A stretch of 64,000 nt of DNA from a virus. The notes under the pieces are model-generated. The model was not told the origin of the DNA. It was given only the letters and a program-made list of their open reading frames with translations, and made no database searches. The stretch spans positions 26,739-90,738 of IMG/VR virus record IMGVR_UViG_3300045988_110023; one strand, written 5' to 3'. Below are positions 36,957 through 63,665 of the stretch, piece by piece (the first letter of the stretch is position 1; each line of letters begins with the position of its first letter). Both the position numbers and the translations under genes were made by a program.

Positions 36957-37083
36957 TTGTACCTCCTACTTTCACAAGCAAGAGGATATTAATACTCAAA
37001 TTAAAATATAAATGACTTATAAGAAAAAGTGCCGACCTCTGTCAGCTAACGAAAAAATATTTTTTGAAATTTACCTACTTGGG

Positions 37084-37155: not shown

Positions 37156-37205
37156 ACACATAAGTTAACCAATCAAAATTCTTGAAAAATGAAAGAAAAT
37201 TGTGA

Positions 37206-37275: not shown

Positions 37276-37396
37276 CCCAGAAATAAAAAATAATTCCTTC
37301 TAAAAGAGATAGACGTACCCTATCTTCCCAGACCAGATACGCAAGAAACAATCTTTTCACATATAAACAATTTAGAGCTTTAAAAATAAACATTTG

Positions 37397-37469
37397 TGGC
37401 AGGTACAGAACTCGAATCTGTGACCTCTAGGTCATGAACCTAGCGAGCTACCAACTGCTCCAACCTGCG
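37397..37469 (-). tRNA. tRNA-Met-type (anticodon CAT)
   Basis: CGCAGGT TG GAGC AGTTGGTA GCTC G CTAGG TTCATGA CCTAG AGGTC ACAGA TTCGAGT TCTGT ACCTGCC A. Canonical 7-nt loop with U33. 1:72 C-C mismatch. No encoded CCA. Confidence 0.8.
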
Positions 37470-50428: not shown

Positions 50429-50511
50429 AATTCTAATATTTTGGTTACTAGTGGCAAAGATACGAAAAGTTTATAATATAAACCATCGTCTTTGCCGTTT
50501 TTAACGCTAAT

Positions 50512-51030
50512 TTAACCTTCCGAAGCAGTCTGCTTCTCGACTGATACGAGTCTTAGGGTAGAACCATTATGGTCATTCCACACACGCATGTAGTCTTCCG
50601 CCTCATCCAATGCATCTTTATATGATTTTGCTCGGAATACGTACGGATTCTCCTTAGGAATGAAAATTCCATCATTGTAGGCAATCTTATACTTTGCAGC
50701 ATAGACACCAATATAGCCGTTCAGCTCGTCGTTCAGACTAGTAGCGATGTCTGCAAGAAGGTCAACTGGTATATCATCATCGATAGCTTTTGCTTCCGGG
50801 AACTCAAACCCTACAGAAGTGCATCGGCTATGAATGATAGGGATAGCTGTATCGCTGTCGCCTACTTCTACGATGTTCACCTCCCTGTTGTCGCCGGCAC
50901 GTACAGGCCAATCGAACACCTTTCTGCTCACATTGTGCTCTCTCATTATCTCACGGATGGTGCATGCAAGCTCCATCTTTGCTGTTGAACGCAATTCATC
51001 AATCTTGTCTTTCAATACTTTTCTCTTCAT
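50512..51030 (-). CDS. Hypothetical protein
   Basis: 172-aa ORF with the standard start unit. Confidence 0.7.
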   Translation of the reverse strand: MKRKVLKDKIDELRSTAKMELACTIREIMREHNVSRKVFDWPVRAGDNREVNIVEVGDSDTAIPIIHSRCTSVGFEFPEAKAIDDDIPVDLLADIATSLNDELNGYIGVYAAKYKIAYNDGIFIPKENPYVFRAKSYKDALDEAEDYMRVWNDHNGSTLRLVSVEKQTASEG

Positions 51031-51084
51031 AATCTTAATATTTTGGTTTAAATTGATGCCCGCCTTCCGGCAGGCTTGTTTGGC

Positions 51085-51657
51085 TTAGTCTTTTCTTTCG
51101 ATATCAAGGCCCGTAAGCACGCCTTTCATATAGGCTAATGTCTCTTCCTTGCATTCCGATAGAAACTTCTGGCAGCCATCAATGATAACGCCGTACTTAC
51201 CGCTCGGATAATTCTGTAGAGAGCACGAGTGGTAATGCTTTCCGGATTTTTCCTCGATTTCTCCTGCGAGTCGCTTCCCTTCGTCGGTCTCATTTGGACG
51301 ATTTTCTGGGTACTCATCGTAAAAATACTCGTGCCATAAATCTAGTAGCATATCCTTGCAATCCTCCATATCTTGCAAAATATCCGATAATTTGTATGGC
51401 GCGCCGTTAGCACCATGTCCATCCTCGCCAATCCATTTACTGGCTTCCTCGTCAGGATCGAAGTCGCTATAATATTGATACAACTTATCCATAAAGTCAG
51501 ACTTATTGCCATTCTCGAACCAAATTGTGGCGATGAAATCTTGGTCTTGTGGGGAATACTTCTCTAACTCGACGCAAACCTCACCTCTTTCGTTAGGTGT
51601 ATCGTCTACATTATAACTCCAGTCTAATTCCTCTGCTATTTTTAAAAAATCATTCAT
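51085..51657 (-). CDS. Hypothetical acidic protein
   Basis: 190-aa ORF, D/E/Y-rich, with the standard start unit. Confidence 0.7.
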   Translation of the reverse strand: MNDFLKIAEELDWSYNVDDTPNERGEVCVELEKYSPQDQDFIATIWFENGNKSDFMDKLYQYYSDFDPDEEASKWIGEDGHGANGAPYKLSDILQDMEDCKDMLLDLWHEYFYDEYPENRPNETDEGKRLAGEIEEKSGKHYHSCSLQNYPSGKYGVIIDGCQKFLSECKEETLAYMKGVLTGLDIERKD

Positions 51658-51705
51658 ATTTTTAATTTTAATTGGTTAATACTTGCACCCTCCGAAGAGG
51701 GCTTT

Positions 51706-52107
51706 TTAGGCTTCCTGGTAAGCGAGAATCTGTATGTGACGCATCTCGAAATTGACGAAGATGTTAAGATATATACCAGCGTAAGTAAGGAGCGTGGTTC
51801 CGTTGTTTTCCTCGGTGATAATTTTCTTTTGCTCTGTGCCCATGAGGTTATTTACCAGGTCGTTTGCCACCATAGCCAGGCGGAGATTGTCTGAGTTATC
51901 CTTTATCCATCTGACATCCATAGAGTTGCCATAAACTTCTGCATGGCAGGCGTTAGAATAGATGAAACCTACAGCCTCGTTGCATCCGTCGTCCGTATAC
52001 TCGCCATCGTCGAACATATTCTCCCACAGAGTGTCATGATAGAGATCGTTCTCAATATCGAATTCACTCAGATTTTTTACATTTACATCTACTATTTCCA
52101 TAATCAT
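51706..52107 (-). CDS. Hypothetical protein
   Basis: 133-aa ORF. Confidence 0.7.
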   Translation of the reverse strand: MIMEIVDVNVKNLSEFDIENDLYHDTLWENMFDDGEYTDDGCNEAVGFIYSNACHAEVYGNSMDVRWIKDNSDNLRLAMVANDLVNNLMGTEQKKIITEENNGTTLLTYAGIYLNIFVNFEMRHIQILAYQEA

Positions 52108-52168
52108 TCTACTTTAATTGGTTAATACTAGGAGCGTGAAACAATAATGTTCCACGCCTTGTTCGGCT

Positions 52169-52603
52169 TTACACCGGCAGAGACACGATGTATTCCTTCT
52201 TCTTCTTTCGTGTTCTGCTCTTCACAGTGAATCCACAAAAATCTCTCAGCCACCCGGCAGCATTGCCGATGAATGGCTCGTTCACCATAAGGATAGGACG
52301 GAGCATTCCGTTCTTCTTCATGAACTGATAGTCTATGAATTCGAACGGGTCATCCGGGTCCTCACTCCTCTTCTCCCAAACGCTGACATCGAGATAGTCG
52401 ATGAAGTCTCCCTCTGGCGGGTTATCCATCTCGATGAATCTCTTCGGAGTTAGGAGAATCGTCTCCTTAGGCTCATGGGTCATAAAGAAATTCTCTATAA
52501 CCTCGTTGAACTTGTTCATGTCCATCTGTTTCTGGACAATGCCCTTTCTCTTCATGATGTCGGAAGCTTTGAGCATTCTTGTACCTCTTCTTGCTACTGC
52601 CAT
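52169..52603 (-). CDS. Hypothetical protein
   Basis: 144-aa ORF. ATG lies in the AGAATTATG-type context (TTTGAATTATG). Confidence 0.7.
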   Translation of the reverse strand: MAVARRGTRMLKASDIMKRKGIVQKQMDMNKFNEVIENFFMTHEPKETILLTPKRFIEMDNPPEGDFIDYLDVSVWEKRSEDPDDPFEFIDYQFMKKNGMLRPILMVNEPFIGNAAGWLRDFCGFTVKSRTRKKKKEYIVSLPV

Positions 52604-52655
52604 AATTCAAAATTTTAATTGGTTAAACATAGTACCCTCCGAAGAGGGCTTTTGG

Positions 52656-53360
52656 CTAGTGTGCAAGGAATCCTACCGCCTGCCCCTTACCGATGGACCA
52701 GCATAGTCTGTCTTCCTTCAGGCACTCTGTGCAGTTTCCGGTACACAGACGTGTTCCTTCCGGAGCAGACGTTCCGCTCTCGAAGATAGGATGCGCCTCA
52801 GGGAATCCATGGCGGTTATCCATCTTAAGACCAAGCCATCCGCTGAATAGGATATGCATGTTCTCTGGGATTACATTGCCCTCATCGAGATACTCGTTGC
52901 ATACATCGAACATCTTCGTGAACGCCAGGAACTTGGTATCCTTGTGCTTGCGTGCAATATCGCACATCTTGTCAAGATACCATTTATTCTGGATATCACC
53001 GCCGATATGGAATCGGAAGGCTCTAGGAAATCTGTAGTCGAGATACCCGTCAATCTCCTTGAAGTATCGTTCAGGATCCTCGTGGAGAATGGCAGAATTG
53101 ATAGCTCTCGTCTTGATGACCTCCTTGTAAATCATGTCATTGCGCAGGTCGTAGCAGCTCTTCGCACAGATTGCACAGTTGCCGCAATCCATGACCGGGA
53201 TAAGCGATACAGATGGGATTACTCCCAACTTGCTGTTGCCATCGCTGATCTTGACATGCAAGTCGCTGACGTTCTCTACTGCGTTCTCATAAGCTGCCTG
53301 TGCCTTTGACAGACGAGTCTTCATTCCTTCCTTACCTAATGTCCAGTAATTTCTACTCAT
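52656..53360 (-). CDS. Cys-cluster protein (possible metal or Fe-S binding), family not confidently recognised
   Basis: 234 aa with MDCGNCAICAKSCY and CTGNCTECLKEDRLC clusters and FRFHIGGD. Confidence 0.65.
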   Translation of the reverse strand: MSRNYWTLGKEGMKTRLSKAQAAYENAVENVSDLHVKISDGNSKLGVIPSVSLIPVMDCGNCAICAKSCYDLRNDMIYKEVIKTRAINSAILHEDPERYFKEIDGYLDYRFPRAFRFHIGGDIQNKWYLDKMCDIARKHKDTKFLAFTKMFDVCNEYLDEGNVIPENMHILFSGWLGLKMDNRHGFPEAHPIFESGTSAPEGTRLCTGNCTECLKEDRLCWSIGKGQAVGFLAH

Positions 53361-53494
53361 AATTCTAATTTAAAATTGGTTAAACTAGTGGTACAAAAAA
53401 CCGGCGTGTCTCACGACAGACCGGCTTGAACCATTTAAACAAAATTTAGTTATGATATGAGTAGCCAGCCGCTGCTAACGACTGACATTTTTGG

Positions 53495-53890
53495 CTAATC
53501 TTCATCTACTTTTACATTGTAGTGAAATCTTACAGTAAGGTAATCTGTGCTCAGAAAGAATGTATAGATTAAAGGCTCAGCCTGGCGTTCGTCGAGATAC
53601 TGCTTCGTCTCGAAATAGTATATATTATTTTTTGATTCGCCAGTCAGTCGTTTGACAATCTCTCTACCCCACTCTGATGTAATCCACGATCGAAGCTTCC
53701 TGATAGATAGGTAGTTTCCGTGATACTCTATCATTGTAGGTGCGCCTCCTACAAATCCCAATGAAAAAAACTTATTGGTGAGATATTGCGAATCGTCAAA
53801 GATGGCGTCTAGAAGTGATTCCTCGACGACATTCTTCCCGTCAATAAGAGCCTTAATATACTCTCTTGTGTCTACATTAATTTCCTTCAT
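53495..53890 (-). CDS. Hypothetical protein
   Basis: 131-aa ORF. Confidence 0.7.
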   Translation of the reverse strand: MKEINVDTREYIKALIDGKNVVEESLLDAIFDDSQYLTNKFFSLGFVGGAPTMIEYHGNYLSIRKLRSWITSEWGREIVKRLTGESKNNIYYFETKQYLDERQAEPLIYTFFLSTDYLTVRFHYNVKVDED

Positions 53891-54121
53891 AATTCTTAAT
53901 TTTATTGGTTAGACTTTGAATCGGTTACCGAATCAGTAACCGACTTTTTGGGCTAGAATGGCTCCCGGCTGGCGCCTTGCTTTAATAGTTCGATCTAGAG
54001 AGCTTTAGCTCGAAGGATTACCTCCAGTAGTGACTGGAGGAGATCCTTCGTTGAAGAAGCTCTTGTGAATTGCTGCCGAGCCACCATTCCATAGGTGGCG
54101 AACCTTACGTCCTACTGATGA

Positions 54122-55177
54122 TTACTTGTTCTCGCTCTTGGCTTTCTTCCACTCAAGAATCTTGCCCTGGATGTCTATATCAGACTCTTTGATGAGCTGC
54201 TTGAGAACACCGAGCATTCTCCAACCTTCTTCGTCGTAGAGCTTGGCTTTTGACTCAAGCTCCTTAAGGGAGTTGGTTTCTGACATCTTTCGTCCGTTCT
54301 TCAGGAATCTTGCTCCGTGGAACATGATGAGGTTTCTCATCGTGTAGTAGGAACCTGAACCCTTGTAGGCAGTAATGAACGCATCAGCCTGCTTGGTATC
54401 CCACGCGAGATGCTTGCGGTTCTTGTTGAACTTGCGAACGGCATCGTAGAGTTCCTTGTAGGTTTCTGCAACACTCATCTTGTTGGCAAGGTCACGGAGA
54501 GGATTGTATACCTTTCTCTCCAAGTCAGCGACGAAGATGTTTTCGTTCTGAAGACGGATATAAGGATTACCCTTGCAGGTATGCTTGTATGTCTTCTTCT
54601 TGTTTCCATCCTTGTCCTCCTTGGTAGTGTAGATGCACTTGTCGTCAATGTAGCTGCGAAGCTTGTTAATATAGTCAATAGCCATATCGTGTGCTACGCA
54701 GCCGTTGAACCAGCGGTTTCTCGCCTTGAGATTCTCGTAGTCCTTGTGGTCACACATCTTCATCTGAGCATACAGCTCGTTCTCCAACATGCGCCACTGG
54801 TACTCGTAGCCTTTCTTCTGCAACACCTCGTTGAATGACTTGCCGTCCTTCTCCATGTCTCGCAACATGTGGAATATCTGACTCATCACCCAACGACGGA
54901 AGAGCTTCCAGTTACTTACGTATCCACCCTCGACAATCTGCTTGCCTACCGCATCGATGGTTGCATCGTCCATATCAACAGGAACAGCCGCACCATTTTC
55001 GATTTTGATAAGCTGATCATCACCGAGAGGGAAATATTTACTAGTATCAACACCTGCTGCCTTAAGAGCTTCGAGACGCATCTGCGCCTTGGTCTTCTTA
55101 CCGGTAGCTGCTGTAGCCTCTACATTGTTAGTTACGATGTTCAAGTTCTCACCAGTGATTGTTACAATCTGCTTCAT
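54122..55177 (-). CDS. Hypothetical protein
   Basis: 351-aa ORF, the largest non-enzymatic gene of the array. No family recognised. Confidence 0.75.
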   Translation of the reverse strand: MKQIVTITGENLNIVTNNVEATAATGKKTKAQMRLEALKAAGVDTSKYFPLGDDQLIKIENGAAVPVDMDDATIDAVGKQIVEGGYVSNWKLFRRWVMSQIFHMLRDMEKDGKSFNEVLQKKGYEYQWRMLENELYAQMKMCDHKDYENLKARNRWFNGCVAHDMAIDYINKLRSYIDDKCIYTTKEDKDGNKKKTYKHTCKGNPYIRLQNENIFVADLERKVYNPLRDLANKMSVAETYKELYDAVRKFNKNRKHLAWDTKQADAFITAYKGSGSYYTMRNLIMFHGARFLKNGRKMSETNSLKELESKAKLYDEEGWRMLGVLKQLIKESDIDIQGKILEWKKAKSENK

Positions 55178-55359
55178 AATTCTAATAATTTTAAATTGGT
55201 TACTAAAAATTTATTTAACTCTAGTGGATGAGGCTTACGCCCCACCCTTGTTTGGCTCAACCCAGTCTCTGAGGATAATCAGGTCCCTGTCATTTTCAGA
55301 CTTCCAGAACCATCTTCCCCACCTGTTCTCCCATGCAAGGTTGCCTCTTAGAAGCTGAA

Positions 55360-55686
55360 TCAGTATGTATAGCTCCGCTTACATCTAGCTACCTCTCGTC
55401 GCTCACCATACATCATATCTTCGTCTGAGAGCTCTTTCTCGGGCAAAGCCTTGAAGTAGTAGCGGCGATGGGATTCAGAACGCTCAGACGGCACAGAATG
55501 TTTGTATGCCATATATCTCTGTTCTATTGCGAACAGGACTACTGCATGTGTCAGGTAAGGTGTATCTTTCGGCTTATCTTCCTCAGACATTACTATCTTA
55601 CCATTCATCCTACATGTCCTCTTCTGGAAGTTGATGGTGAACTTAGCACCATTCTCAACTGCATTGATAATCTCGTCGTATGTCAT
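55360..55686 (-). CDS. Hypothetical protein, possibly frameshifted at its 3' end
   Basis: 108-aa ORF. Unlike its neighbours its stop is not in the AGCC(T/A)AAA motif. An alternative frame continues to a TAAGCC stop at 55235. Confidence 0.6.
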   Translation of the reverse strand: MTYDEIINAVENGAKFTINFQKRTCRMNGKIVMSEEDKPKDTPYLTHAVVLFAIEQRYMAYKHSVPSERSESHRRYYFKALPEKELSDEDMMYGERREVARCKRSYTY

Positions 55687-55718
55687 AATTCTATTGTATT
55701 GGTTAATAGGGATAGTGC

Positions 55719-55964
55719 TTATTCTTGCACTATCAAATTGGCTTCTTCGAGTTCATCCTTACTCAGTACATCTTCGTCTTCTCCGATGTGGATATAGAAT
55801 TTGTCTCCGTTCGCCCACTCCATTGCACGCATATACAACCAGTGAGCCTCTTCGATAGAGAATCCGTCTGCGCTTACTGAATCAAGCATCTCGCCCATGC
55901 AAACTTCTGACGTTTCGTACTCTTTCTTGATTTCCTCAAGCTTCTTTAGTAATCTGCTGTTCAT
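55719..55964 (-). CDS. Hypothetical acidic protein
   Basis: 81-aa ORF with the standard start unit TTAACCAATATTTAAGAATTATG. Confidence 0.7.
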   Translation of the reverse strand: MNSRLLKKLEEIKKEYETSEVCMGEMLDSVSADGFSIEEAHWLYMRAMEWANGDKFYIHIGEDEDVLSKDELEEANLIVQE

Positions 55965-55989
55965 AATTCTTAAATATTGGTTAATGGGA

Positions 55990-57318
55990 GTGCGCTCAGA
56001 GAATCTGTTGCGTAACTATAAGGTCTTGATTAATACTGTATCTAAGTCCTGACAGATCCAGGTAACCACCTGGATCTTCAGGATGATTGATACCGTATTG
56101 TACAATCTATTCTCCTTGCGCACAATTCGGCTCGCAATAACCTAGTCTGACTCAACCTGATACGTTGCATTGCTTTAAGTTTTTGATTAAGGGCGTGGCA
56201 TTGTTATGAAGCCAACCTCAGGAAGCGTACGCTTCCCCATCCTTGGCTTCAGAATCAATGAAACGCTCGATGAACTCTCAGAACTTGCCAGACATCGCTG
56301 CAATGCGCATGACTTATCTCATGTATTATGTTGCATGGATATATGTTCTTGATTCGATCCCGTGTTTGGATACCTGCGCCTGCGGGGATAACGGCAGGCG
56401 GCAGGTATACCACTCACGTGATATTAAACCTCATACTCTTGATAAGTCGTGATGCAATTCACTTTTGGTTGTTGTAGGTACACTCATAGGTCTGTTGTCT
56501 TACTATAGGCTGATGATTTAACCCGCTTGCCGATACGCGAGATTGCTGGTATTACCAGACATATCGCGTTGATACAAGGCGGGTTGAATAAACCGATACC
56601 TCCTCGTGTACCTCGTTTGGCAATAACGTTGTCTTTATCTGAGAGCGTGGCACGTAGCTATAGCAGCTTGATTCGAGGGCTGTTGTAAGCCGCCGGAGTA
56701 CCCGGATAGTGTTCCGGGGAGGCCGGCGGCATGTAAACAGCACTCATAAATTCACTCTCCTCTAAAGACTACCCTCGTGCTAGGGTGATTCCCTGACCGA
56801 TGGCTCGGCACAATACTTTATGTTTCTGATTTGACACAGGATTCGCCAGAATAGGTGATCCAGGACAATGCGCCTACTGCGCAGCCGTCCAGGATCAACT
56901 ACTCTGGTTAAGAGACCTGTTGCATAAACTTCAGCCATCCGTCAGGGAGTGGTGGTGTGCGCCACCGGTGGTGGTCATACGGAATGTCACATTTCTGTAC
57001 TTCGTTGATGAGCTACGCCTTGTGCGTCATACGAGGGGCCCGAGGTGTCTCAAGTTGCAAACTTGGATAACTCGGTCCCCTCAGATGATGTTATAGAGGC
57101 GTCGCCTGAATCTGTCCGTCCTTCTCCCACGTCCGTGTGCTCGGTTACAGAGTCTGCCGGTCAGAAGATACTGCGCATAGCTATATCAGATTGATAATAT
57201 CCGGTTTAGGACGAGCGTAGGACCCATCTCATTGAGATGAGGTCCATGCACTCCGCAACCGGGATATTTAAAACCTTGTGTCTTCATTCCGGCAAAATCC
57301 TTGCGCTAGGATGCTCGT
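55990..57318. ncRNA. Candidate large structured non-coding RNA (or structured DNA) immediately 3' of the reverse transcriptase gene
   Basis: 1.33 kb with no ORF above 69 codons in six frames. It sits in an array where spacers are otherwise about 45-70 nt. It is visibly G+C-richer and holds at least 9 long, near-perfect stem-loops (see findings). The strand is not determinable from the stems because they are almost all Watson-Crick. Confidence 0.45.
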
Positions 57319-58584
57319 CTACAGAGTATTCACCAATGTGTTGTACGCTGCCCTGCTCGTTCGCAAGGCATTCTGAGCACAACCTATCGATAGATACCCC
57401 TTGATTTCGCTCTCTGTCTTACTCCTGTTGGCTTTCACGTTCCTTCCACGACCTCGGTCTATGCAACCTACAGCCTGAGTCTTCACGTATCCGAGACCAC
57501 CGACCTTTCTCTTGCCTGTCTTGACCGCACGGATGCAGTCCATGACGAAGGTGTTGAGCTTGTCGATGTCCTCTTTCACGTTTATGACTGGAAGAACCTG
57601 AGTAGACCAGGAATAATCGCAGTACCCCTTGTAGAGATACCTGTTTACTGCATTGATGGCTTTCGTCATCGTGGTGTCACGTTTCTTTATCGTCCTCTTC
57701 TCAATCTCCTTCTGAAAGGTCTTGATGCGTGTGGACGACAGAGAGATATTGTGACCCTTGATGGAATATCCCAAGAACTTAAACCAGTGATTAGCATCAA
57801 GATACTCAACCTTCTTCGGATTGAGCGTCATCTGCATCATCTCCAGCTCGCTCTTCATGATATCCATGGCTTTCTCATAGTCTTCACCGACAAACAGCGT
57901 ATCATCTGAATAGCGGACGTAATATCCGTTAAGCTTAGATAGCTTGTCGTCAAGATGATAGAGAATGACATCAGCCAGCCATGCAGCAACAGAACATCCC
58001 TGCTTGAGGGACTGATACTTCTCACAGAGGTTATTGTCCTCATCGAAATAGATATCCGTGTGATAGTAGTCACGAATGACATCTATCAGCGCAGACTTTC
58101 CGTACTTCTCCTCTACCTTGTCGAATGCCCAGTCGATGAACCGAATAGGCACGGAATCAAAGTACTTGGAGAAGTCACCTTTCCATCCGATGATTTTACC
58201 ATCTGCCGAGTATATTATCCGAGAAACATCTTGCACCACACGACCGCAGCCGATACCCTTTTGGTATGACGTACAGCGTGGATGCACCATCTCTGGCATC
58301 AGCTCGAACAAGAGGTCGTTTGCTATGCTCAAGAGGATTCTGTCTACAGGTTCATTCACATAGACCGTACGGAAATCTCCGTTGTCTTTCGGAATCTTGG
58401 CTGTATGAGGCGGCATTATCTTGTAATTTCCGCTCTTGATCCTCTGATACATGGCCAGACGAGCCTCAGGTGTTGTAAGCTGATACATTACTGCTTTGTT
58501 CATGTCCTTGAATAAGCCTTTCTCGATAGCATACTGCCATCTGGCTTTCTCGAAGAACATCTCTAGGATTCTGTCTTCATTCAT
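57319..58584 (-). CDS. Reverse transcriptase (stand-alone, class undetermined)
   Basis: RT motifs 1-7: KIPKDNGDFRTVYV, SYQKGIGCGR, GWKGDFSKYFDSVP, SLKQGCSVAAWLADVILY, YVRYSDDTLFVG (YxDD), LNPKKVEYL, FKFLGYSI. A basic C-terminal extension of about 90 aa follows. Confidence 0.9.
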   Translation of the reverse strand: MNEDRILEMFFEKARWQYAIEKGLFKDMNKAVMYQLTTPEARLAMYQRIKSGNYKIMPPHTAKIPKDNGDFRTVYVNEPVDRILLSIANDLLFELMPEMVHPRCTSYQKGIGCGRVVQDVSRIIYSADGKIIGWKGDFSKYFDSVPIRFIDWAFDKVEEKYGKSALIDVIRDYYHTDIYFDEDNNLCEKYQSLKQGCSVAAWLADVILYHLDDKLSKLNGYYVRYSDDTLFVGEDYEKAMDIMKSELEMMQMTLNPKKVEYLDANHWFKFLGYSIKGHNISLSSTRIKTFQKEIEKRTIKKRDTTMTKAINAVNRYLYKGYCDYSWSTQVLPVINVKEDIDKLNTFVMDCIRAVKTGKRKVGGLGYVKTQAVGCIDRGRGRNVKANRSKTESEIKGYLSIGCAQNALRTSRAAYNTLVNTL

Positions 58585-58632
58585 AATTCTTATGTTTTGG
58601 TTATTGGTAGGGAGATTACTCTCCCCATTTGG

Positions 58633-58863
58633 CTAGTCGATGTGCTGATAAACATCTCCTCCCTGCTCTTTTTCGTTGTCAGCATAAAACTCCTGATTAG
58701 AATCAAGCTCTATTTCTTCGTTTACAAAATTGCTGGAATCGAGAACGATGACAGAATCATTGTAGGCTGTTTGTACTTGTTCAAGCGCATCTTTCTCACT
58801 CTTGGCATCGACGCTGACAATCTTGTTTAAAGTCTCTGTGACTGATACGTAATATCTCTTCAT
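58633..58863 (-). CDS. Hypothetical acidic protein
   Basis: The start is placed at MKRYYVSV (58863) in the AGAATTATG context. The track ORF extends to 58986. Confidence 0.65.
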   Translation of the reverse strand: MKRYYVSVTETLNKIVSVDAKSEKDALEQVQTAYNDSVIVLDSSNFVNEEIELDSNQEFYADNEKEQGGDVYQHID

Positions 58864-58916
58864 AATTCTTAATAATTTATTGGTTAATAATGTCAGAGGG
58901 ATTGCTCCCTCCGTTT

Positions 58917-59174
58917 TTAGGCTAATGCGTCCAATACTCTGTGGGCGTTGTATGCGACAGGATTGCTGTATTTTACCCTCTCCCACTTTTTACGCTCACA
59001 AACTTTCAAGCAATACTCATGTGCTATATTCTCTGATAGTGCATCGAACGTGTCGTGTGTGACATCTGATGGTTTACCGAAATAAACTCTGTAACCATCC
59101 CTGTAGCATACTATACGTCTGCCAAGTCTGTAGATTGTTCTACTGCCTTTCTCTACAAATGTAATTCTTTCCAT
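58917..59174 (-). CDS. Hypothetical protein
   Basis: The start is placed at MERITFVEKG (59174) in the AGAATTATG context. Confidence 0.65.
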   Translation of the reverse strand: MERITFVEKGSRTIYRLGRRIVCYRDGYRVYFGKPSDVTHDTFDALSENIAHEYCLKVCERKKWERVKYSNPVAYNAHRVLDALA

Positions 59175-59221
59175 AATTCTCTGTATTTGGTTATTGGTAG
59201 GTAGCCAAATGGCTACCAATT

Positions 59222-59560
59222 TTAGGCTTCGTTCCATGCTTTCCACGCTTCATCCGTATTCTTGGTGATTGCCTCGTTCCAAAGTTTCTCCAATTTATAG
59301 AAAATCTTCTGGAAAGCCTTCGATGTTGCCTTTGGGTCAATGCGCTTGCCGAGATAAGGTCGATTACGTGTAATCGTAATTTCGTCCTCGCACCAGCAAC
59401 ACCTGATCATCCCATACTCCGTAGGAGAACAACCTAGGTAAATTCCTTTTGCGTCATAACGCTCTTTACGTAACCACTTCGGGTAAGGAACGTAAATGGT
59501 CCATGCGTCAACACAGAAACGGAACTTCTTTCTTGTGTCGTGATAAAGTTTCAATTTCAT
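59222..59560 (-). CDS. Hypothetical protein
   Basis: The start is placed at MKLKLYHD (59560), preceded by a CAACCAAAATACAAATAATTATG unit. Confidence 0.65.
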   Translation of the reverse strand: MKLKLYHDTRKKFRFCVDAWTIYVPYPKWLRKERYDAKGIYLGCSPTEYGMIRCCWCEDEITITRNRPYLGKRIDPKATSKAFQKIFYKLEKLWNEAITKNTDEAWKAWNEA

Positions 59561-59609
59561 AATTATTTGTATTTTGGTTGATAGAAGAGGAGCATGCAAG
59601 CTCCCCTTG

Positions 59610-60455
59610 TTAGGCTGCATCTTTCGTCTGTAAGCCGTGTTCTTTGATAACCTCTTCTATGAGGTCATCAGCATCTTCGAAGTACTCTCCGCAACAGGAT
59701 TCAATCTGCTCCCACTCGTAGGAATCAGAAGATTTACCGTCCTCGTACAATTTTGTATACGGGCGTTTCTTTTCTAGGACGTAACTTTTTACATCACCCC
59801 ACATCCACATACCAATATTCTTGACTTCGCTCTCAAACAGCTCGATGGCACGATTCTTCCAGTTCTTGGTATTCGTATCCACCATCTTCTTGAAGCGCTC
59901 CTTGTCGCAATAGGCATATCCTCTAACATAATCTCCCTGGCTATATCCACTGGAAGACCACTCGTAGAATGCTATATCCTTGCAGTTTTCAAGGAGATTA
60001 ATAAAATCATCTTCTTCAAGCTCTTCTGTAAGCTCATCCCTAACATCCTCGTTCTTCAGTTCGTTAGGAGTGAAATCTCTAATGTTGTACCACTCGTTCT
60101 TGCCGATGCTGAATCTTGATTTTCTTTCAAAACTCCACATGTGGCACGACTTGTCGTATTCGAGACACAGATGATCGCAATGAAACATACTATTGATATA
60201 CTTGATAATCTTCTTTTGTGGAACATACTTGCAGACAAGCTCTTTCAAGGCAGCCTCTGCATTTTCAGCGTCGACTTCACTGCTACAACCACGAGAAAGT
60301 CCCCTGTTGTATCCGTAATCAGAATAGTCCCAGAAGTAAACGCCTGCCAAATCCCATTCTGTGCAAGGGCATTCGGCATCCTCATCCTGGTAAATGGTGA
60401 TTCTGTAATCACCGATTTCCTTCTTTGCAAATTCGTAACTCATATCTAATATCAT
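59610..60455 (-). CDS. Hypothetical acidic protein
   Basis: 281 aa. ITIYQDEDAECPCTEWD...WGDVKSYVLEKK...ESCCGEYFED. An alternative start is at 60443 (MSYEF). Confidence 0.7.
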   Translation of the reverse strand: MILDMSYEFAKKEIGDYRITIYQDEDAECPCTEWDLAGVYFWDYSDYGYNRGLSRGCSSEVDAENAEAALKELVCKYVPQKKIIKYINSMFHCDHLCLEYDKSCHMWSFERKSRFSIGKNEWYNIRDFTPNELKNEDVRDELTEELEEDDFINLLENCKDIAFYEWSSSGYSQGDYVRGYAYCDKERFKKMVDTNTKNWKNRAIELFESEVKNIGMWMWGDVKSYVLEKKRPYTKLYEDGKSSDSYEWEQIESCCGEYFEDADDLIEEVIKEHGLQTKDAA

Positions 60456-60498
60456 TTAAATGGTTTAACATTGAATATCCCCATGCTAGGGGATATTG

Positions 60499-61038
60499 TT
60501 AGGCTTCCTCATAATCTTCCTCCATCATAGAGTGAATCTCTTCAAGTTCGTTCGAGAAATTGTACTTGATGTTGTACGTGCCGAACGCCTTGAAGTACCA
60601 CTCTTCAAGGTACGCTCTGTCCTCGTCAGCCTGCTCGCTGTCCTCTGCCGAATCAAGTCTGGCTACCATCTGAGGATAAAAATCGTAGTAATCGTCGCCA
60701 TCGTAGTCCGTCGCCCAGAACGTACCTGTAACGTGTCTAGGATAATCGTTGTACAGATTGGCAAAATTACCATCCATGCGCTGGTCATTAAGATGGAGAT
60801 ATTTCTTCATCTCTCTGTTTACCTTATGGGTAAACTCCCATGCAAGAGACTGGATATTCTTTCCGTACAAATCGGCAATGTATTCTTCCATGTCTTCTGC
60901 GTCATCGAAATTCTCCAGGCATTCGCGATAGAGGCCTTCGATTGTCTTGGCAAAGCTTTTTACACCGATATAATCGGCTACTTTTTCGATAACCTCACCC
61001 TTGCTGTTCATAACATATTCCCAAATATTCTTTTCCAT
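60499..61038 (-). CDS. Hypothetical strongly acidic protein
   Basis: 179 aa, D/E/Y-rich throughout. The antisense 185-aa ORF is spurious. Confidence 0.7.
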   Translation of the reverse strand: MEKNIWEYVMNSKGEVIEKVADYIGVKSFAKTIEGLYRECLENFDDAEDMEEYIADLYGKNIQSLAWEFTHKVNREMKKYLHLNDQRMDGNFANLYNDYPRHVTGTFWATDYDGDDYYDFYPQMVARLDSAEDSEQADEDRAYLEEWYFKAFGTYNIKYNFSNELEEIHSMMEEDYEEA

Positions 61039-61090
61039 AATTCATCTGTTTAATGGTTCATAATTGTTCCCCACGATGATGTGGGGAGTT

Positions 61091-61330
61091 TTAGCCACAT
61101 ATGGCAATGTCGCCATAATTTCTGTAGAAATGCTTGTATGCCTCAAGACCACTTGCAGCTTTCAAGTCTGTGACCTCTAGCTTACCGGTATCCTTGCGTA
61201 CCTCTGCAATAGAGAATGAATTGTCGTGCGTCCACTTGATGAGGTCCACACGCCTAACAGGATTCTCTACTGACTCAACGATTTTACACTTCAGTAAATC
61301 GTCATTCAGTATTTTCTCTAAATCACTCAT
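61091..61330 (-). CDS. Hypothetical protein
   Basis: The start is placed at MSDLEKIL (61330) in the AGAATTATG context. The track ORF extends to 61540 across the next intergenic unit. Confidence 0.65.
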   Translation of the reverse strand: MSDLEKILNDDLLKCKIVESVENPVRRVDLIKWTHDNSFSIAEVRKDTGKLEVTDLKAASGLEAYKHFYRNYGDIAICG

Positions 61331-61388
61331 AATTCTGTAATTTTTTGTTAATAGAAATCCCCACCCGTGAGAGTGAGGATTGGTTTGG

Positions 61389-61853
61389 CTAATCATCGAA
61401 ATCACTTTCATCCTGATCGTACCACCAGTCCTGGAATCGATTTGCAACCTCTTCCAGTGCATACTTGGCAAATGTGTCGTAGATATTTCTGCTCTCGCCC
61501 TCGTTAAAAGGAGCATACAGAGCCTTGCCGATAGCATCATAGGTGACAGATTTGTCGTCCTTGAAATTCCCGAATCCCTTAATCATCGTGATAAGGTCTT
61601 CTCCCAAATCATCGGCAAGCTCGTGCATATTCTCCATGATAGCACTCTTGTTCTCGTTCCAGAACTTGCTTGTCTGATAAGTATAACAGAATCCAGTGTA
61701 CCCGTCATTTGCATTTCTGCAACTATCGAGAGAATTCAATATCGTGTCTTCATCGACACCACCAAGCTGCTCTACTACGGCATATGCCATCTTTACGAAT
61801 GATGGATTATCATTTTCCTTGATAAACGCATCCCATACTTTCTGTATATTCAT
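61389..61853 (-). CDS. Hypothetical acidic protein
   Basis: 154 aa ending in DQDESDFDD. Confidence 0.7.
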   Translation of the reverse strand: MNIQKVWDAFIKENDNPSFVKMAYAVVEQLGGVDEDTILNSLDSCRNANDGYTGFCYTYQTSKFWNENKSAIMENMHELADDLGEDLITMIKGFGNFKDDKSVTYDAIGKALYAPFNEGESRNIYDTFAKYALEEVANRFQDWWYDQDESDFDD

Positions 61854-61913
61854 ATTTCTGTATTTTGGTTGATAATAGAAACGAGCAAGCGCACCATACG
61901 CTTACCCGTAATT

Positions 61914-62132
61914 TTAGCCGAAAACCCAGATAGCCGTAGTTCTTGCACAAATGGCATATAGCTTTCCGCTGTGACCACGGAACAGCATTCCGTTGCATCC
62001 GTACACACCGGAAGAATAGCCTACCTGACTATATTCTTCCGGGATGGCTGCACGGCTTGAACTGTGTGTTATATCCTTGGCAGCTCCTACTCTAACGAGT
62101 CTCTTCAACTCTTTCTGTGTCATTTTCTCCAT
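61914..62132 (-). CDS. Hypothetical protein
   Basis: 72-aa ORF with the standard start unit. Confidence 0.65.
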   Translation of the reverse strand: MEKMTQKELKRLVRVGAAKDITHSSSRAAIPEEYSQVGYSSGVYGCNGMLFRGHSGKLYAICARTTAIWVFG

Positions 62133-62194
62133 AATTCTTTAATTTTGATGGTTTAACATGGTTTCTGTGCAGATAGACTGCACAGAATGTTTGG

Positions 62195-62371
62195 CTAGAA
62201 CTTGCGAGGACGCATGCACGATTGCTCAATCTCCAGAGCTTTCTTGTCTGCACGCGCTACGCGTCTGAAATACTCGCTCTTGTCGAGGTTCTTGCGTCTG
62301 CACTCCTCGCTGATAACTGCCTTGTGACTCGCTACGAGCCTGGCAAGGAACTTTCTGTCTCCGTCTGTCAT
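62195..62371 (-). CDS. Small basic protein (58 aa), possibly ribbon-helix-helix-like. Not in the ORF track.
   Basis: MTDGDRKFLARLVASHKAVISEECRRKNLDKSEYFRRVARADKKALEIEQSCMRPRKF. ATG lies in the TTTGAATTATG unit and the stop in TAGCCAAAC. The listed ORFs 62226-62507 (-) and 62222-62677 (+) are in other frames. Confidence 0.55.
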   Translation of the reverse strand: MTDGDRKFLARLVASHKAVISEECRRKNLDKSEYFRRVARADKKALEIEQSCMRPRKF

Positions 62372-62430
62372 AATTCAAAATTTGATTGGTTAATAGCAGG
62401 CAGCACATTATCGTACTGCCCAGTTCTGGC

Positions 62431-62700
62431 TCAGAGATTGTACACCGGACTTTCTGAAGCACACAGAATCGTAGGACCGGTGAGGATGGAGAATGCACAA
62501 GGGTCAAAGCCCTCGATATTCTTCATGCTCTCGATTTTCTTCTGTATCTCAGCACGTATGGATGACAGACTCAATCTGCCATCGATAGGCATGACAGAAT
62601 CCATGCCCACCATTTCCACAACGCTCACCTCATCGATGAATCTCATGTTCACAAGGTCAAACTTGTTAATCTTATGATAAAATTGTACCCATTTACTCAT
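62431..62700 (-). CDS. Hypothetical protein
   Basis: 89-aa ORF with the standard start unit. Confidence 0.65.
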   Translation of the reverse strand: MSKWVQFYHKINKFDLVNMRFIDEVSVVEMVGMDSVMPIDGRLSLSSIRAEIQKKIESMKNIEGFDPCAFSILTGPTILCASESPVYNL

Positions 62701-62749
62701 AATTCTACATTTTGGTTTATAGGAGAGGGAGTTTTATCTCCCTCATTTT

Positions 62750-63034
62750 TCAGGCTGTGTACTTCTTGAGAAATTCTGCGAGCTTGTTGTATTCATCGTC
62801 AATTTCTTCCTTGTTATCCACATAAAAGAAATTTGCGGTACAGCAGTCTGTAACTTTACACGTATCATCAAAGACAGCAGCATGAGCAGACATAGATCCG
62901 GTTTCTCCGTCTAATCTGACAGTAAGGCTCACGCCTGGCAGACTCTCTGCCAAATCTCTCTGAATTTTCTGCAATTTTGGCATGATGGTAGAACGTATGT
63001 ACTCTACATTCTCCTTGTATTCTTCATCTATCAT
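62750..63034 (-). CDS. Hypothetical protein, paralogue of 63087-63377
   Basis: IMPKLQKIQRD and EYNKLAEFLKKYTA parallel ILPRLQEIQRD and EYEKLTDFIKVHSA in the neighbour. Confidence 0.7.
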   Translation of the reverse strand: MIDEEYKENVEYIRSTIMPKLQKIQRDLAESLPGVSLTVRLDGETGSMSAHAAVFDDTCKVTDCCTANFFYVDNKEEIDDEYNKLAEFLKKYTA

Positions 63035-63086
63035 AATCTATAATTTTTGGTGAATAATTGTATGCGTGACAGTTGCCACGCACATT

Positions 63087-63377
63087 TTAGGCTGAATGTA
63101 CCTTAATGAAGTCTGTGAGTTTTTCGTACTCGGACTCCAGCTTTTCTCTGTCAAGCACGCAGGAGAGATGTAGGTGTAGGTATTTGTTGACCTTACCATA
63201 CATGATGGTGTAGGCATGGCAGACGATGTATTTGCCCTCAGGATCTACGTCTACCTCCAGACCAATCTTATTCTTGCCGAATATGTCACGCTGAATCTCC
63301 TGCAATCTAGGCAGAATCTTGTTGCGCAGATATTCTCTGCTCTTCTCTTCCCATTTAGGATTCTCTAATTTCTTCAT
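63087..63377 (-). CDS. Hypothetical protein, paralogue of 62750-63034
   Basis: See 62750-63034. The upstream hairpins are also near-identical (GTGCGTGGCAACTGTCACGCA versus GTGCGTGGCGGTTGTCACGCA on the minus strand). Confidence 0.7.
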   Translation of the reverse strand: MKKLENPKWEEKSREYLRNKILPRLQEIQRDIFGKNKIGLEVDVDPEGKYIVCHAYTIMYGKVNKYLHLHLSCVLDREKLESEYEKLTDFIKVHSA

Positions 63378-63425
63378 AATCTAAAATATTGGTGAATAGT
63401 ATGCGTGACAACCGCCACGCACATT

Positions 63426-63602
63426 TCAGCTCATGCACAGCACCGCTATCTCAGAGAAGCTCTTGGAGATAGCTTTCTTGCTACGATAATCTCTGTAGCC
63501 CTTAGTATTGTTGCTATGCCACTGGCGCGCTGCTATCTTGATCTTCTCCATCTCATGCATAAGCGCACGCTCAAAATTCTTCTGTGATTTTCTGTCTAAC
63601 AT
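63426..63602 (-). CDS. Small basic protein (58 aa), not in the ORF track
   Basis: MLDRKSQKNFERALMHEMEKIKIAARQWHSNNTKGYRDYRSKKAISKSFSEIAVLCMS. ATG lies in the AGAATTATG unit. Confidence 0.5.
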   Translation of the reverse strand: MLDRKSQKNFERALMHEMEKIKIAARQWHSNNTKGYRDYRSKKAISKSFSEIAVLCMS

Positions 63603-63665
63603 AATTCTGTAATTTAATTGGTTAATACTGGATACCGCCCGAATATCTCCAAGCGGTAGTTTTGG

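What the first reader, a model, noticed from the sequence alone, without database searches (positions are those of the whole stretch)
57319..58584. Stand-alone reverse transcriptase embedded as an ordinary cassette in a phage small-gene array
The 421-aa ORF has all seven RT palm and finger motifs, including YSDD. Its context does not fit the familiar classes.
- Only 48 nt separate it from the upstream gene. That leaves no room for group II domains I-III or a retron msr/msd.
- I see no Avd-like gene, template repeat or variable-repeat target next to it.
- No endonuclease or maturase X domain is obvious.
- Its C-terminal part of about 90 aa (…GGLGYVKTQAVGCIDRGRGRNVKANRSK…) is basic and unassigned.

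It carries the same hairpin and TTGGTTAT..AAGAATTATG start unit as its neighbours, so it appears to be expressed like any other gene of the array. An RNase H-like gene (45927-46367) lies 11 kb away in the same block.
Basis: partly seen in the sequence, partly recalled or inferred. Interest (0 to 1): 0.75.

Follow-up and report, generated by a model that had tools for sequence, protein, structure and literature searches.

The report
Phage UG27 reverse transcriptase, RNA-module array
The ORF is a genuine reverse transcriptase, but it belongs to the already described, phage-borne UG27 family. It is not stand-alone: a 1.35-kb array of eight repeated, pseudoknotted RNA modules and two conserved partner genes follow it, and their function is still unknown.

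Summary
The 421-aa ORF (57319-58584, minus strand) is real and intact.

**Family.** It matches the PADLOC RT_UG27 profile end to end (E 3e-227, 752 bits). UG27 is a Class 2 UG/Abi RT family described in 2022 in human-gut phages, with two unknown partner proteins and a putative ncRNA.

**Not stand-alone.** The same gene order holds in every relative examined (about 300 fetched loci, RT identity mostly 65-100%):
- RT
- an ORF-free stretch of 0.85-1.5 kb
- a ~150-aa protein (frameshifted in this window)
- a ~351-aa protein

**The RNA.** The ORF-free 1.35 kb (55965-57318) is a head-to-tail array of eight ~170-nt structured RNA units on the RT strand. A ninth unit follows the 351-aa gene. Each unit has four covarying helices, a covarying pseudoknot and a 20-nt single-stranded junction of fixed length (AUC-N7-UAAAG-NN-A).

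**What it is not.** Group II intron, retron and DGR are excluded. The "RNase H-like" gene is not supported.

**Host.** A temperate phage or prophage of Segatella copri.

**Mechanism (inferred).** By analogy with DRT2, DRT3, DRT9 and DRT10, the RT binds the units and copies a short bounded template into cDNA.

**Status.** The biological role is unknown. The family is already known. The tandem-module architecture may be new, but one 2026 preprint on UG27 ncRNA could not be read.

The parts
57319..58584 (-). UG27-family reverse transcriptase CDS, 421 aa, with the YSDD active site and a conserved basic C-terminal domain.
   Evidence: ORF. Pfam RVT_1. PADLOC RT_UG27 E 3.1e-227 over the full length. 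Invariant residues. Codon-position diversity of 0.017, 0.008 and 0.131 shows purifying selection.
58582..58632 (-). 48-nt upstream spacer holding a hairpin (GGGAGAGTAATCTCCC) and the shared AACCAA...AAGAATTATG start unit. The range given runs through the ATG.
   Evidence: Sequence. Pattern enrichment of 14 copies against 0.02 expected.
55987..57311 (-). UG27 ncRNA: a head-to-tail array of eight ~170-nt structured units that starts 7 nt after the RT stop codon and fills the ORF-free 1.35 kb.
   Evidence: A covariance model built only from other clades hits this stretch, on this strand only. Alifold on 54 close relatives gives 376 pairs, 95% canonical, 62 with compensatory changes against 15-25 in shifted controls. 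G-U pairs outnumber A-C by 1208 to 327.
57152..57311 (-). Unit 1. Junction AUC AAUCUGA UAUAG CU AUG.
   Evidence: cmsearch 30.9 bits, E 3.6e-7. Motif.
56967..57145 (-). Unit 2. Junction AUC AACGAAG UACAG AA AUG.
   Evidence: cmsearch 35.8 bits, E 2.6e-8.
56789..56965 (-). Unit 3. Junction AUC AGAAACA UAAAG UA UUG. Homologous to unit 1 of other clades.
   Evidence: cmsearch 30.8 bits, E 3.9e-7. nhmmer block of HMM positions 371-527 matches the first ~170 nt after the RT in several other clades.
56629..56785 (-). Unit 4. Junction AUC AAGCUGC UAUAG CU ACG.
   Evidence: cmsearch 44.7 bits, E 2.1e-10.
56475..56628 (-). Unit 5, degenerate. The fold is kept, but the junction ends AGA and the pseudoknot partner is lost.
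   Evidence: cmsearch 2.5 bits, E 1.9. Helices with compensatory changes. Sequence.
56310..56462 (-). Unit 6. Junction AUC AAGAACA UAUAU CC AUG.
   Evidence: cmsearch 28.7 bits, E 1.2e-6.
56143..56308 (-). Unit 7. Junction AUC AAAAACU UAAAG CA AUG. Absent from some close relatives through recombination between unit motifs.
   Evidence: cmsearch 20.9 bits, E 8.3e-5. Deletion variants.
55987..56129 (-). Unit 8. Junction AUC AAGACCU UAUAG UU ACG. This is the terminal unit type, the block of the array that aligns across most clades.
   Evidence: cmsearch E 0.033 with filters off. Cross-clade alignment A2.
55719..55964 (-). 81-aa gene lying between the array and the accessory genes. It is not part of the conserved module; in L082 its homolog sits upstream of the RT.
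55235..55686 (-). Accessory protein 1 (~150 aa in relatives). Here a 1-nt deletion splits it into a 108-aa ORF (55360-55686) and an out-of-frame remainder (55235-55378).
   Evidence: Homologs. Three-frame translation. Conserved synteny. The AF2 model of the full-length homolog (pLDDT 86.7) has no structural neighbour in PDB or BFVD.
54122..55177 (-). Accessory protein 2, 351 aa, no known domain. Conserved downstream of every UG27 RT examined.
   Evidence: No Pfam, PHROG or PDB hit. The AF2 model is of low confidence.
53956..54091 (-). Solitary ninth RNA unit, just downstream of accessory protein 2.
   Evidence: cmsearch 23.5 bits, E 2.1e-5. A unit is found at the same position in many other clades, and three in L096.

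Best explanation
**What it is.** The ORF is the reverse transcriptase of a UG27 system (Class 2 UG/Abi RTs) carried by a temperate phage or prophage of Segatella copri. The functional unit is not the ORF alone. In order, it comprises:
- the RT
- an array of eight ~170-nt RNA units in its 3' untranslated region
- a ~150-aa protein, frameshifted in this window
- a 351-aa protein
- one more RNA unit

**Fold of one RNA unit.**
- A small hairpin, Pa.
- A closing stem (P1 plus P1b).
- An inner stem, P2.
- A long variable hairpin, P3.
- A pseudoknot between the GCACA loop of Pa and UGUGC in the 3' junction.
- This fold frames a 20-nt single-stranded junction of fixed length, AUC-N7-UAAAG-NN-A.

**Shown here.**
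- Family membership of the RT.
- The conserved gene order.
- The RNA strand, the unit fold, the pseudoknot and the tandem organisation.
- The prophage host.

[quoted passage not shown] On that basis:
- the RT binds each unit;
- its conserved C-terminal domain probably helps anchor the RNA;
- it copies a short, geometrically bounded template into cDNA, which may be repetitive;
- the 20-nt junction is the best candidate for that template;
- the array lets several RT molecules load on one RNA, or specifies several distinct products.

**Biological role (a guess).**
- About 45%: prophage-borne exclusion of other phages, as for the other UG/Abi RTs.
- About 25%: counter-defence.
- About 20%: a role in the phage's own life cycle.
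For: **Family.**
- PADLOC RT_UG27 matches at E 3.1e-227, 752 bits, profile 2-420 of 420. The next best are UG26 (112 bits), Drt9 and UG17.
- The published description of UG27 lists gut phages of Bacteroidetes and Firmicutes, protein clusters 337 and 346, and an ncRNA between the RT and cluster 336.

**Synteny.** RT, then gap, then p150, then p351, in all loci long enough to test, including the cultured Bacteroides phage BS-TP1.

**RNA.**
- The motif ATC-N6-8-TA.A.-NN-AYG occurs 6 times in the gap against 0.06 expected. Its period is ~170 nt in every clade.
- A covariance model built from 54 units of other clades finds 7 of the 8 array units at E<=0.033 (unit 5 is marginal, E 1.9), plus one solitary unit. 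All are on the RT strand, and nothing else in the 64 kb matches.
- Hits in other loci number 138, 112 and 45, all in RT sense.
- The covariation score is 0.731, against 0.208 +/- 0.007 in shuffles (0 of 500) and <=0.133 in slid controls.
- The pseudoknot was not part of the model. It is 98.3% paired, with compensatory changes at all 5 pairs.
- The junction is 20 nt in 93 of 112 units, with invariant A, U, C and U, A, A (G in 98%). Its variable positions have no covarying partner.
- Units at the same position in different clades are more alike (0.63) than units within one array (0.48).

**Selection.** Unit cores have diversity 0.06-0.17. RT four-fold degenerate sites have 0.164. P3 hairpins have 0.17-0.29 with pairing kept.

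**Host.** The RT is 98-99% identical in Segatella copri genomes, including the complete chromosome NZ_CP152484.1. The window carries two integrases.

**Class 2 logic.** bioRxiv 10.64898/2026.06.29.735271, section 9, and 10.64898/2026.04.29.721553.
Against: - There is no direct evidence here for any cDNA, for RT-RNA binding, or for which segment is the template.
- The A-B-A' microhomology that directs repeat synthesis in DRT10 was not detectable as co-variation within the junction (best z 2.7 over 84 tests).
- No stop-free neo-like reading frame arises from circularising a unit.
- The accessory proteins have no recognisable domain or fold, so no effector logic can be read.
- Accessory protein 1 is frameshifted in this window. 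This copy of the system may be impaired.
- UG27 showed no defence-island enrichment in the 2022 survey.
- I could not test the authors' own cluster 336, 337 and 346 profiles.
Confidence: 0.6

Rival explanations
1. Retron-like variant of the mechanism. The RT initiates in the conserved 3' junction of each unit and copies the long P3 hairpin, giving a set of 5-9 different hairpin ssDNAs. These act as decoys or sensors, much like retron msDNA.
For: - The junction lies 3' of P3, which is the correct side for reading P3 as a template.
- P3 keeps its base pairing while its sequence drifts at or above the neutral rate.
- Each array position has its own conserved P3 sequence across clades.
- Unit size (~170 nt) is in the range I recall for retron ncRNAs (my own recollection).
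Against: - The RT scores far better against UG27 and other Class 2 UG profiles than against retron profiles.
- All characterised Class 2 UG RTs use short single-stranded templates, not hairpins.
- There are no a1/a2-type flanking repeats and no Rfam retron hit.
- A structure-only constraint on a spacer hairpin explains the evolution of P3 equally well.
Confidence: 0.15
2. The array works mainly as RNA, for example as a multi-site scaffold, a sponge or decoy for host RNA-binding defence proteins, or a large RNP. The RT serves chiefly as its binding partner, and polymerisation is secondary.
For: - The RNA is large and highly structured. The MFE is -503 kcal/mol for 1354 nt.
- It is made of pseudo-repeats with position-specific identities.
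- Other large phage-associated structured RNAs exist, such as GOLLD and ROOL (my own knowledge).
Against: - YSDD and all the RT motifs are invariant across relatives that are ~65-68% identical to the window RT, and the gene is under strong purifying selection in the close clade. Catalysis therefore matters.
- There is no Rfam match to GOLLD, ROOL or any other family.
Confidence: 0.15
3. Mobile retroelement. The element would be a degenerate group II intron or another retrohoming element whose RT and RNA move as a unit.
For: - The closest solved structures by sequence are group II intron RTs (6ar1, E 2.6e-11).
- NCBIfam group_II_RT_mat gives 100.8 bits.
- The block of RT plus array has sharp conservation boundaries against variable flanks.
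Against: - The NCBIfam score is far below the 300-bit cut-off.
- No intron domain is detected, even at E<=10.
- Only 48 nt lie upstream of the ORF.
- No endonuclease or D domain is present.
- The element always sits in the same syntenic position with the same accessory genes.
- The sharp boundaries coincide with the shared gene-start units, at which the whole gene block is mosaic.
Confidence: 0.03
4. One reading: a truly stand-alone RT without RNA or protein partners. A DGR or retron whose partners were overlooked is a variant of the same view.
For: There is no Avd gene, no TR/VR pair and no upstream ncRNA.
Against: - The downstream array and the two accessory genes are conserved with the RT in every clade examined.
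- No second copy of the non-coding DNA exists that could serve as a VR.
- Retron and DGR profiles score far below UG27.
Confidence: 0.02

Closest known systems
UG27 systems (Mestre et al. 2022, NAR 50:6084, PMC9226505): a Class 2 UG/Abi RT of human-gut phages
   Same: - The RT profile matches end to end.
- The carrier is a phage or prophage of gut Bacteroidota.
- Two co-located proteins have no known domain.
- A structured ncRNA lies in the intergenic region downstream of the RT.
- There is no known function.
   Different: Nothing places this locus outside the family. The differences are additions to the 2022 description.
- The 2022 main text describes the ncRNA only as 'three long stem-loops' and never uses the word 'tandem'. 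Here it resolves into 5-8 homologous pseudoknotted units, plus a further unit after the second accessory gene.
- This copy has a frameshifted accessory protein 1 and an extra 81-aa gene.
DRT10 (UG17), DRT9 (UG28), DRT2 (UG2) and DRT3: Class 2 UG RT plus ncRNA defence systems
   Same: - They belong to the same RT class and are among the better-scoring profiles after UG27 (Drt9 97 bits, UG17 86 bits, Drt3a 47, Drt2 45).
- Each has a dedicated structured ncRNA.
[quoted passage not shown] The UG27 unit offers the same geometry: P2, a 20-nt junction, then the pseudoknot.
   Different: - Curated profiles are not met (NF041746 Drt2: 43 bits against a cut-off of 390).
- The ncRNA is downstream of the RT, not upstream as for UG2 and UG28.
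- It has many tandem units rather than one RNA.
- The partner proteins are unrelated to SLATT or nitrilase effectors.
- The system is carried by phages rather than by defence islands.
- No cDNA product is known.
Group II intron RTs and maturases (for example GsI-IIC RT, PDB 6ar1)
   Same: The fingers and palm, and the start of the thumb, align over residues 46-338.
   Different: - There is no ribozyme.
- There is no D or En domain.
- The score is below the family cut-off.
- The C-terminal domain is different.
Retrons
   Same: An RT with a dedicated ~170-nt structured RNA that contains a long variable hairpin.
   Different: - The RNA is downstream and multi-copy.
- The fold is different and pseudoknotted.
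- Retron RT profiles score weakly (42 bits).

Membership tests
UG27 (Class 2 UG/Abi RT system) | The RT matches the UG27 profile over its full length. | tested here: met
   PADLOC PDLC03765: E 3.1e-227, 752.4 bits, residues 3-421 against profile 2-420 of 420. The next family scores 112 bits.
UG27 (Class 2 UG/Abi RT system) | Encoded in phages or prophages of gut Bacteroidota or Firmicutes. | tested here: met
   - 401 IMG/VR relatives.
- A cultured relative, Bacteroides phage BS-TP1.
- 98-99% identical copies in Segatella copri genomes and relatives across Bacteroidales.
- Integrases in the window.
UG27 (Class 2 UG/Abi RT system) | Two co-located accessory proteins without known domains (clusters 337 and 346). 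| tested here: inconclusive
   Two domain-less proteins (~150 aa and ~351 aa) are syntenic with the RT in all loci. The authors' cluster profiles were not available, so identity with clusters 337, 346 and 336 is inferred, not tested.
UG27 (Class 2 UG/Abi RT system) | A structured ncRNA in the intergenic region between the RT and the next conserved gene. | tested here: met
   Covariation-supported structure on the RT strand, found by a covariance model in all clades tested.
Class 2 UG RT mechanism (ncRNA-templated cDNA synthesis) | RT-dependent cDNA templated by a short single-stranded window of the ncRNA, with A-B-A' microhomology. | not testable with these tools
   The geometry is compatible: a 20-nt fixed-length unpaired junction between P2 and the pseudoknot. 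A-A' co-variation was not detected. There are no cDNA data.
Group II intron | Ribozyme domains I-VI around the ORF, and an RT/maturase above the curated cut-off. | tested here: not met
   No Rfam hit at E<=10. TIGR04416 scores 100.8 bits against a cut-off of 300. Only 48 nt lie upstream.
Retron | msr/msd next to the RT, and a retron-type RT profile. | tested here: not met
   No Rfam hit. The best retron profiles score 42 bits, against a cut-off of 235 for NF038233.
Diversity-generating retroelement | A TR/VR repeat pair with adenine-specific differences, and an Avd accessory gene. | tested here: not met
   No second copy of any part of the non-coding region exists in the 64 kb. No DGR-type profile is among the top hits. 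The neighbours have no Avd-like domain.
DRT2 / DRT9 / DRT3 / DRT4 | A curated NCBIfam equivalog score. | tested here: not met
   Drt2 scores 43.1 against 390, Drt3a 37.6 against 200 and Drt4 25 against 450. The PADLOC Drt9 profile gives 96.8 bits, against 752 for UG27.

The most novel reading that the evidence does not exclude
The UG27 'ncRNA' is not one RNA motif. It is a cis-encoded tandem array of 5-8 position-specific, pseudoknotted ~170-nt modules, plus a further module after the accessory genes. Each module presents a fixed-length 20-nt single-stranded window. In this reading the array loads several RT molecules and templates several distinct short cDNAs, which may be tandem repeats. That would make it a multi-template retroelement of temperate gut phages with no described counterpart among retrons, DRTs, DGRs or introns. 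I could not read the 2026 preprint, which mentions UG27 74 times, so I cannot exclude that the architecture is already reported.
Probability: 0.3. Interest if true: 0.75.

Novelty: already known. Interest (0 to 1): 0.5.

Why it matters
- UG27 stands out among UG/Abi reverse-transcriptase groups for being carried predominantly by phages.
- It is very common in human-gut viromes. The 2022 survey found 1447 dereplicated genomes, and the best-matching 90%-identity protein cluster for this RT (94% identical representative) holds 6526 member sequences.
- It includes prophages of Segatella copri, a key gut species.
- Its function is an open question.
- The module map given here covers the units, the pseudoknot and the candidate 20-nt template window. 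Together with two tractable hosts, it makes the question directly testable. The hosts are the cultured phage BS-TP1 on Bacteroides salyersiae and the S. copri HDD04 lysogen.
- RT plus ncRNA pairs of this class are also of interest as programmable DNA-writing tools.

Tried and rejected
- **DRT2-like de novo gene.** I circularised and concatenated the segment between consecutive motifs in 24 diverse units. Only one sequence had a stop-free frame, and the period (150-172 nt) is not held to multiples of 3. Rejected.
- **DGR.** blastn at word sizes 7-9 of the 1.35 kb against the whole window finds only self-hits and intra-array repeats. Rejected.
- **A-B-A' template microhomology.** There is no significant positional identity or pairing co-variation inside the junction. 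N7 has no covarying partner elsewhere in the unit. Unresolved, not supported.
- **Hypermutation of the P3 hairpins.** Their diversity (0.17-0.29) is only 1-1.8 times that of RT four-fold sites (0.164). Neutral drift under a pairing constraint plus recombination is enough to explain it.
- **Direct alignment of the window RNA with BS-TP1.** It shows no usable sequence similarity. The homology appeared only through nhmmer blocks and the motif.
- **Accessory proteins.** Pfam, PHROGs and PDB sequence searches are all empty. The AF2 model of p351 has pLDDT 52 and was not searched. The AF2 model of p150 is good but has no structural neighbour.
- **The 'RNase H-like' gene.** Not supported.
- **bioRxiv 10.64898/2026.09.22.753630.** It could not be opened. 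Only term counts could be obtained.
- **Sigma-70 promoter and terminator scan.** Not above the shuffle level, and not suited to Bacteroidota.
Full report
**Observation**

The ORF exists as described: 57319..58584, minus strand, 421 aa, ATG start.
- Pfam RVT_1 is matched over its whole length, E 5.8e-18.
- YSDD is invariant in 13 relatives that are 65-68% identical to the window protein.
- The upstream gap is 48 nt.
- The shared start unit is genuine. AACCAA-N6-18-AATTATG occurs 14 times in the window against 0.02 expected. Every copy is on the minus strand and ends on a gene's ATG, including the RT's.
- Rfam finds no intron, retron or other family around the gene, even at E<=10.
- The 'RNase H-like' gene at 45927-46367 has no support.

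**What the protein is**

- The PADLOC profile RT_UG27 matches at E 3.1e-227 (752 bits), residues 3-421 against profile positions 2-420 of 420.
- The next families are UG26 (112 bits), Drt9/UG28 (97 bits) and UG17 (86 bits).
- Curated NCBIfam models for group II RT/maturase, Drt2, Drt3a, Drt4 and retron RTs all fall far below their cut-offs.
- By sequence, the nearest solved structures are group II intron RTs (6ar1, residues 46-338), followed by Cas6-RT-Cas1, retron-type RTs and two UG-type RTs: 9ioa/9vma, which I take to be DRT9 (9VMA is cited as DRT9), and Drt2 (9c0i).
- UG27 was defined by Mestre et al. 2022 (PMC9226505). It is a Class 2 UG/Abi RT and is encoded mostly in predicted human-gut phages of Bacteroidetes and Firmicutes.
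  - It is associated with two domain-less protein clusters (337 and 346).
  - It has a putative ncRNA 'with three long stem-loops' between the RT and cluster 336.
  - It is not enriched in defence islands, and its function is unknown.

**It is not stand-alone**

- I fetched about 300 related loci:
  - 80 close relatives (RT 97-100% identical);
  - the cultured Bacteroides phage BS-TP1 (67%);
  - a further ~150 IMG/VR loci representing more than a dozen additional clades (65-68% identity);
  - 80 loci from bacterial genomes (46-99%).
- In every locus long enough to test, the order is RT, then an ORF-free gap of 855-1507 nt, then a homolog of window 55360-55686, then a homolog of window 54122-55177.
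- In this window an 81-aa gene (55719-55964) also sits between the gap and the first accessory gene.
- Accessory protein 1, normally ~150 aa, is split by a 1-nt deletion.

**The 1.35 kb is a structured RNA on the RT strand**

- Among close relatives the RT gene has nucleotide diversity of ~0.05. The gap alternates between conserved and highly variable patches.
- RNAalifold on 54 of these sequences gives 376 pairs. They are 95% canonical, and 62 have compensatory changes against 15-25 in shifted controls.
- G-U pairs outnumber A-C by 1208 to 327, which favours the RT-sense strand.

**The RNA is a tandem array of homologous units**

- A 20-nt motif (ATC-N6-8-TA.A.-NN-AYG) occurs 6 times in the window's gap against 0.06 expected. 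It recurs with a ~170-nt period in every clade. There are 5 copies in the ~900-nt gaps and 7 in the ~1500-nt gaps.
- An alignment of 54 units from ten other clades (A4) shows a common fold:
  - hairpin Pa with loop A-GCACA;
  - closing stem P1 (8 bp) and P1b;
  - a conserved 5' junction (..AAGG..AUUYA..);
  - stem P2;
  - a long variable hairpin P3;
  - a 3' junction;
  - a pseudoknot between GCACA and UGUGC.
- On that MAFFT alignment the covariation score is 0.472, against 0.188 +/- 0.009 in shuffles (0 of 500).
- A covariance model built from these 54 units contains no window-clade sequence and no pseudoknot (R1).
  - In the 64-kb window it hits only the minus strand.
  - The eight intervals lie head to tail between 55987 and 57311. 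One of them (56475-56628) is degenerate.
  - It also finds a solitary unit at 53956-54091, just after the 351-aa gene.
- Across other loci all 138, 112 and 45 hits are in RT sense.
  - They tile the gap after the RT.
  - They usually include one unit after the second accessory gene, and three in L096.
  - They are also found next to RTs only 50-62% identical.
- On the model-aligned set of 112 units the covariation score is 0.731, against 0.208 +/- 0.007 in shuffles (0 of 500) and <=0.133 in slid controls.
- The pseudoknot, which the model did not contain, is 98.3% paired, with compensatory changes at all five pairs.
- Units at the same array position in different clades are more alike (0.63) than different units of one array (0.48). 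The array is therefore old and its positions are not interchangeable.
- Deletion variants among close relatives lack one or five units, with breakpoints in the conserved unit cores.

**Candidate template**

- The single-stranded 3' junction between P2 and the pseudoknot is 20 nt long in 93 of 112 units.
- It has invariant A-U-C at one end and U-A-.-A-G near the other, with seven variable positions in between.
- Those variable positions have no covarying partner anywhere in the unit.
- Recent work on DRT10, with re-inspection of DRT2, DRT3 and DRT9 structures, concludes that Class 2 UG RTs share one logic. [quoted passage not shown] Its sequence is free but its geometry is fixed. A-B-A' microhomology drives tandem-repeat synthesis (bioRxiv 10.64898/2026.06.29.735271, section 9; 10.64898/2026.04.29.721553).
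- The UG27 junction fits that geometry, so it is my best candidate for a template. This is inference only.
  - I found no co-varying A/A' microhomology.
  - I found no neo-like open frame.
- The strongly conserved C-terminal ~80 aa may supply RNA anchoring contacts, as the C-terminal residues do in DRT9, DRT3a and DRT10. This is also inference.

**Evolutionary rates**

- RT four-fold degenerate sites have diversity 0.164.
- Unit cores have 0.06-0.17, which indicates constraint.
- P3 hairpins have 0.17-0.29 with pairing preserved.
- This fits a structure-only constraint on P3 plus recombination. It does not require hypermutation.
- No VR-like copy of the RNA exists in the window.

**Accessory proteins**

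- Neither protein has a Pfam, PHROG or PDB sequence match.
- The AF2 model of the 351-aa protein is unreliable (pLDDT 52).
- The model of a full-length 150-aa homolog is confident (pLDDT 86.7, pTM 0.84). It has no structural neighbour in PDB (best E 3.9) and only its own homolog in BFVD.

**Host and context**

- The window matches only uncultured human-faecal phage records.
- The same RT at 98-99% identity lies in Segatella copri genomes, including the complete chromosome NZ_CP152484.1.
- The window encodes two integrases, a RecT-like protein, a helicase, an RtcB ligase and three tRNAs. It is therefore a temperate phage or prophage.
- Relatives occur in prophage-like regions across Bacteroidales and in a few Firmicutes assemblies.

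**Verdict**

- The finding is a correct detection of an RT and a correct exclusion of the classic retroelement classes. The RT, however, belongs to a family described in 2022, and it sits next to that family's described partners.
- Novelty of the finding as stated: already known.
- What may be new is the internal architecture of the UG27 RNA: a tandem, position-specific array of pseudoknotted units, plus a terminal unit. The main text of the 2022 paper does not describe it.
- I could not open a September 2026 preprint that mentions UG27 74 times, 'UG27 ncRNA' 11 times, pseudoknot 12 times and tandem 3 times. I therefore give only 0.3 probability that the multi-template reading is both undescribed and mechanistically right.
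- The biological function remains unknown. My ranking is prophage-borne phage exclusion, then counter-defence, then a role in the phage's own life cycle. This ranking is a judgement from family context, not a result.

Noticed in passing
window 55235-55686 (-): Accessory protein 1 of the UG27 module is frameshifted. A 1-nt deletion near 55372 (AAGC-GGAGC against AAGCTGGAGC) truncates it to 108 aa, and the remaining ~47 codons continue in another frame. The identical 108-aa product is on record from 6 contigs, so this is probably a real lineage variant and not a sequencing error.
   Followed up: partly
window 53956-54091 (-), and after the p351 homolog in L088, L114, L117, L118, L219, L231, L232, L216, L071, L077, L250, L096 (3 copies): A solitary RNA unit of the same family lies downstream of the second accessory gene, so the protein genes are bracketed by RNA units.
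   Followed up: partly
window 50426-63623 (-): Fourteen copies of a gene-start unit, AACCAA-N6-18-AATTATG, against 0.02 expected. Each sits immediately at the ATG of a minus-strand gene. Block boundaries of mosaic conservation between related phages coincide with these units.
   Followed up: partly
L003, L019, L025, L030, L071 compared with window 56143-57271: Close relatives lack one unit (unit 7) or up to five units. The breakpoints fall in the conserved unit cores, which suggests unequal recombination between units.
   Followed up: partly
window 55719-55964 (-); L082 4357-4602: An 81-aa gene sits between the array and the accessory genes in this clade. Its homolog (52% identity) lies upstream of the RT in another clade, so it is a movable small-gene cassette.
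   Followed up: no
window 58633-58986 (-): The gene just upstream of the RT has a DpnD/PcfM-like domain (PF14207, E 5e-11). This position is highly variable between otherwise near-identical phages.
   Followed up: no
window 17557-18762 (-) and 36885-37469 (-); L081 12763-13179: The phage carries an RtcB-type RNA ligase and three tRNA genes. The distantly related UG27 phage BS-TP1 also carries an RtcB-like ligase, a few kb from its RT. A possible link to RNA repair or tRNA-targeting defences was not examined.
   Followed up: no
window 41280-42449 (+), 49409-50428 (-), 32834-33718 (-): Two tyrosine-integrase-like genes and a RecT-like gene, consistent with a temperate life style.
   Followed up: partly
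L096 4501-5766: This UG27 RT has one in-frame stop codon, at a position where the 13 aligned relatives have an invariant Tyr (..RKY*HS..). It may be a pseudogene, an assembly error or stop-codon recoding. This locus also has three units after the second accessory gene.
   Followed up: no
window 26-7048 (+): A very large ORF of 2340 aa at the start of the window. It was not analysed.
   Followed up: no
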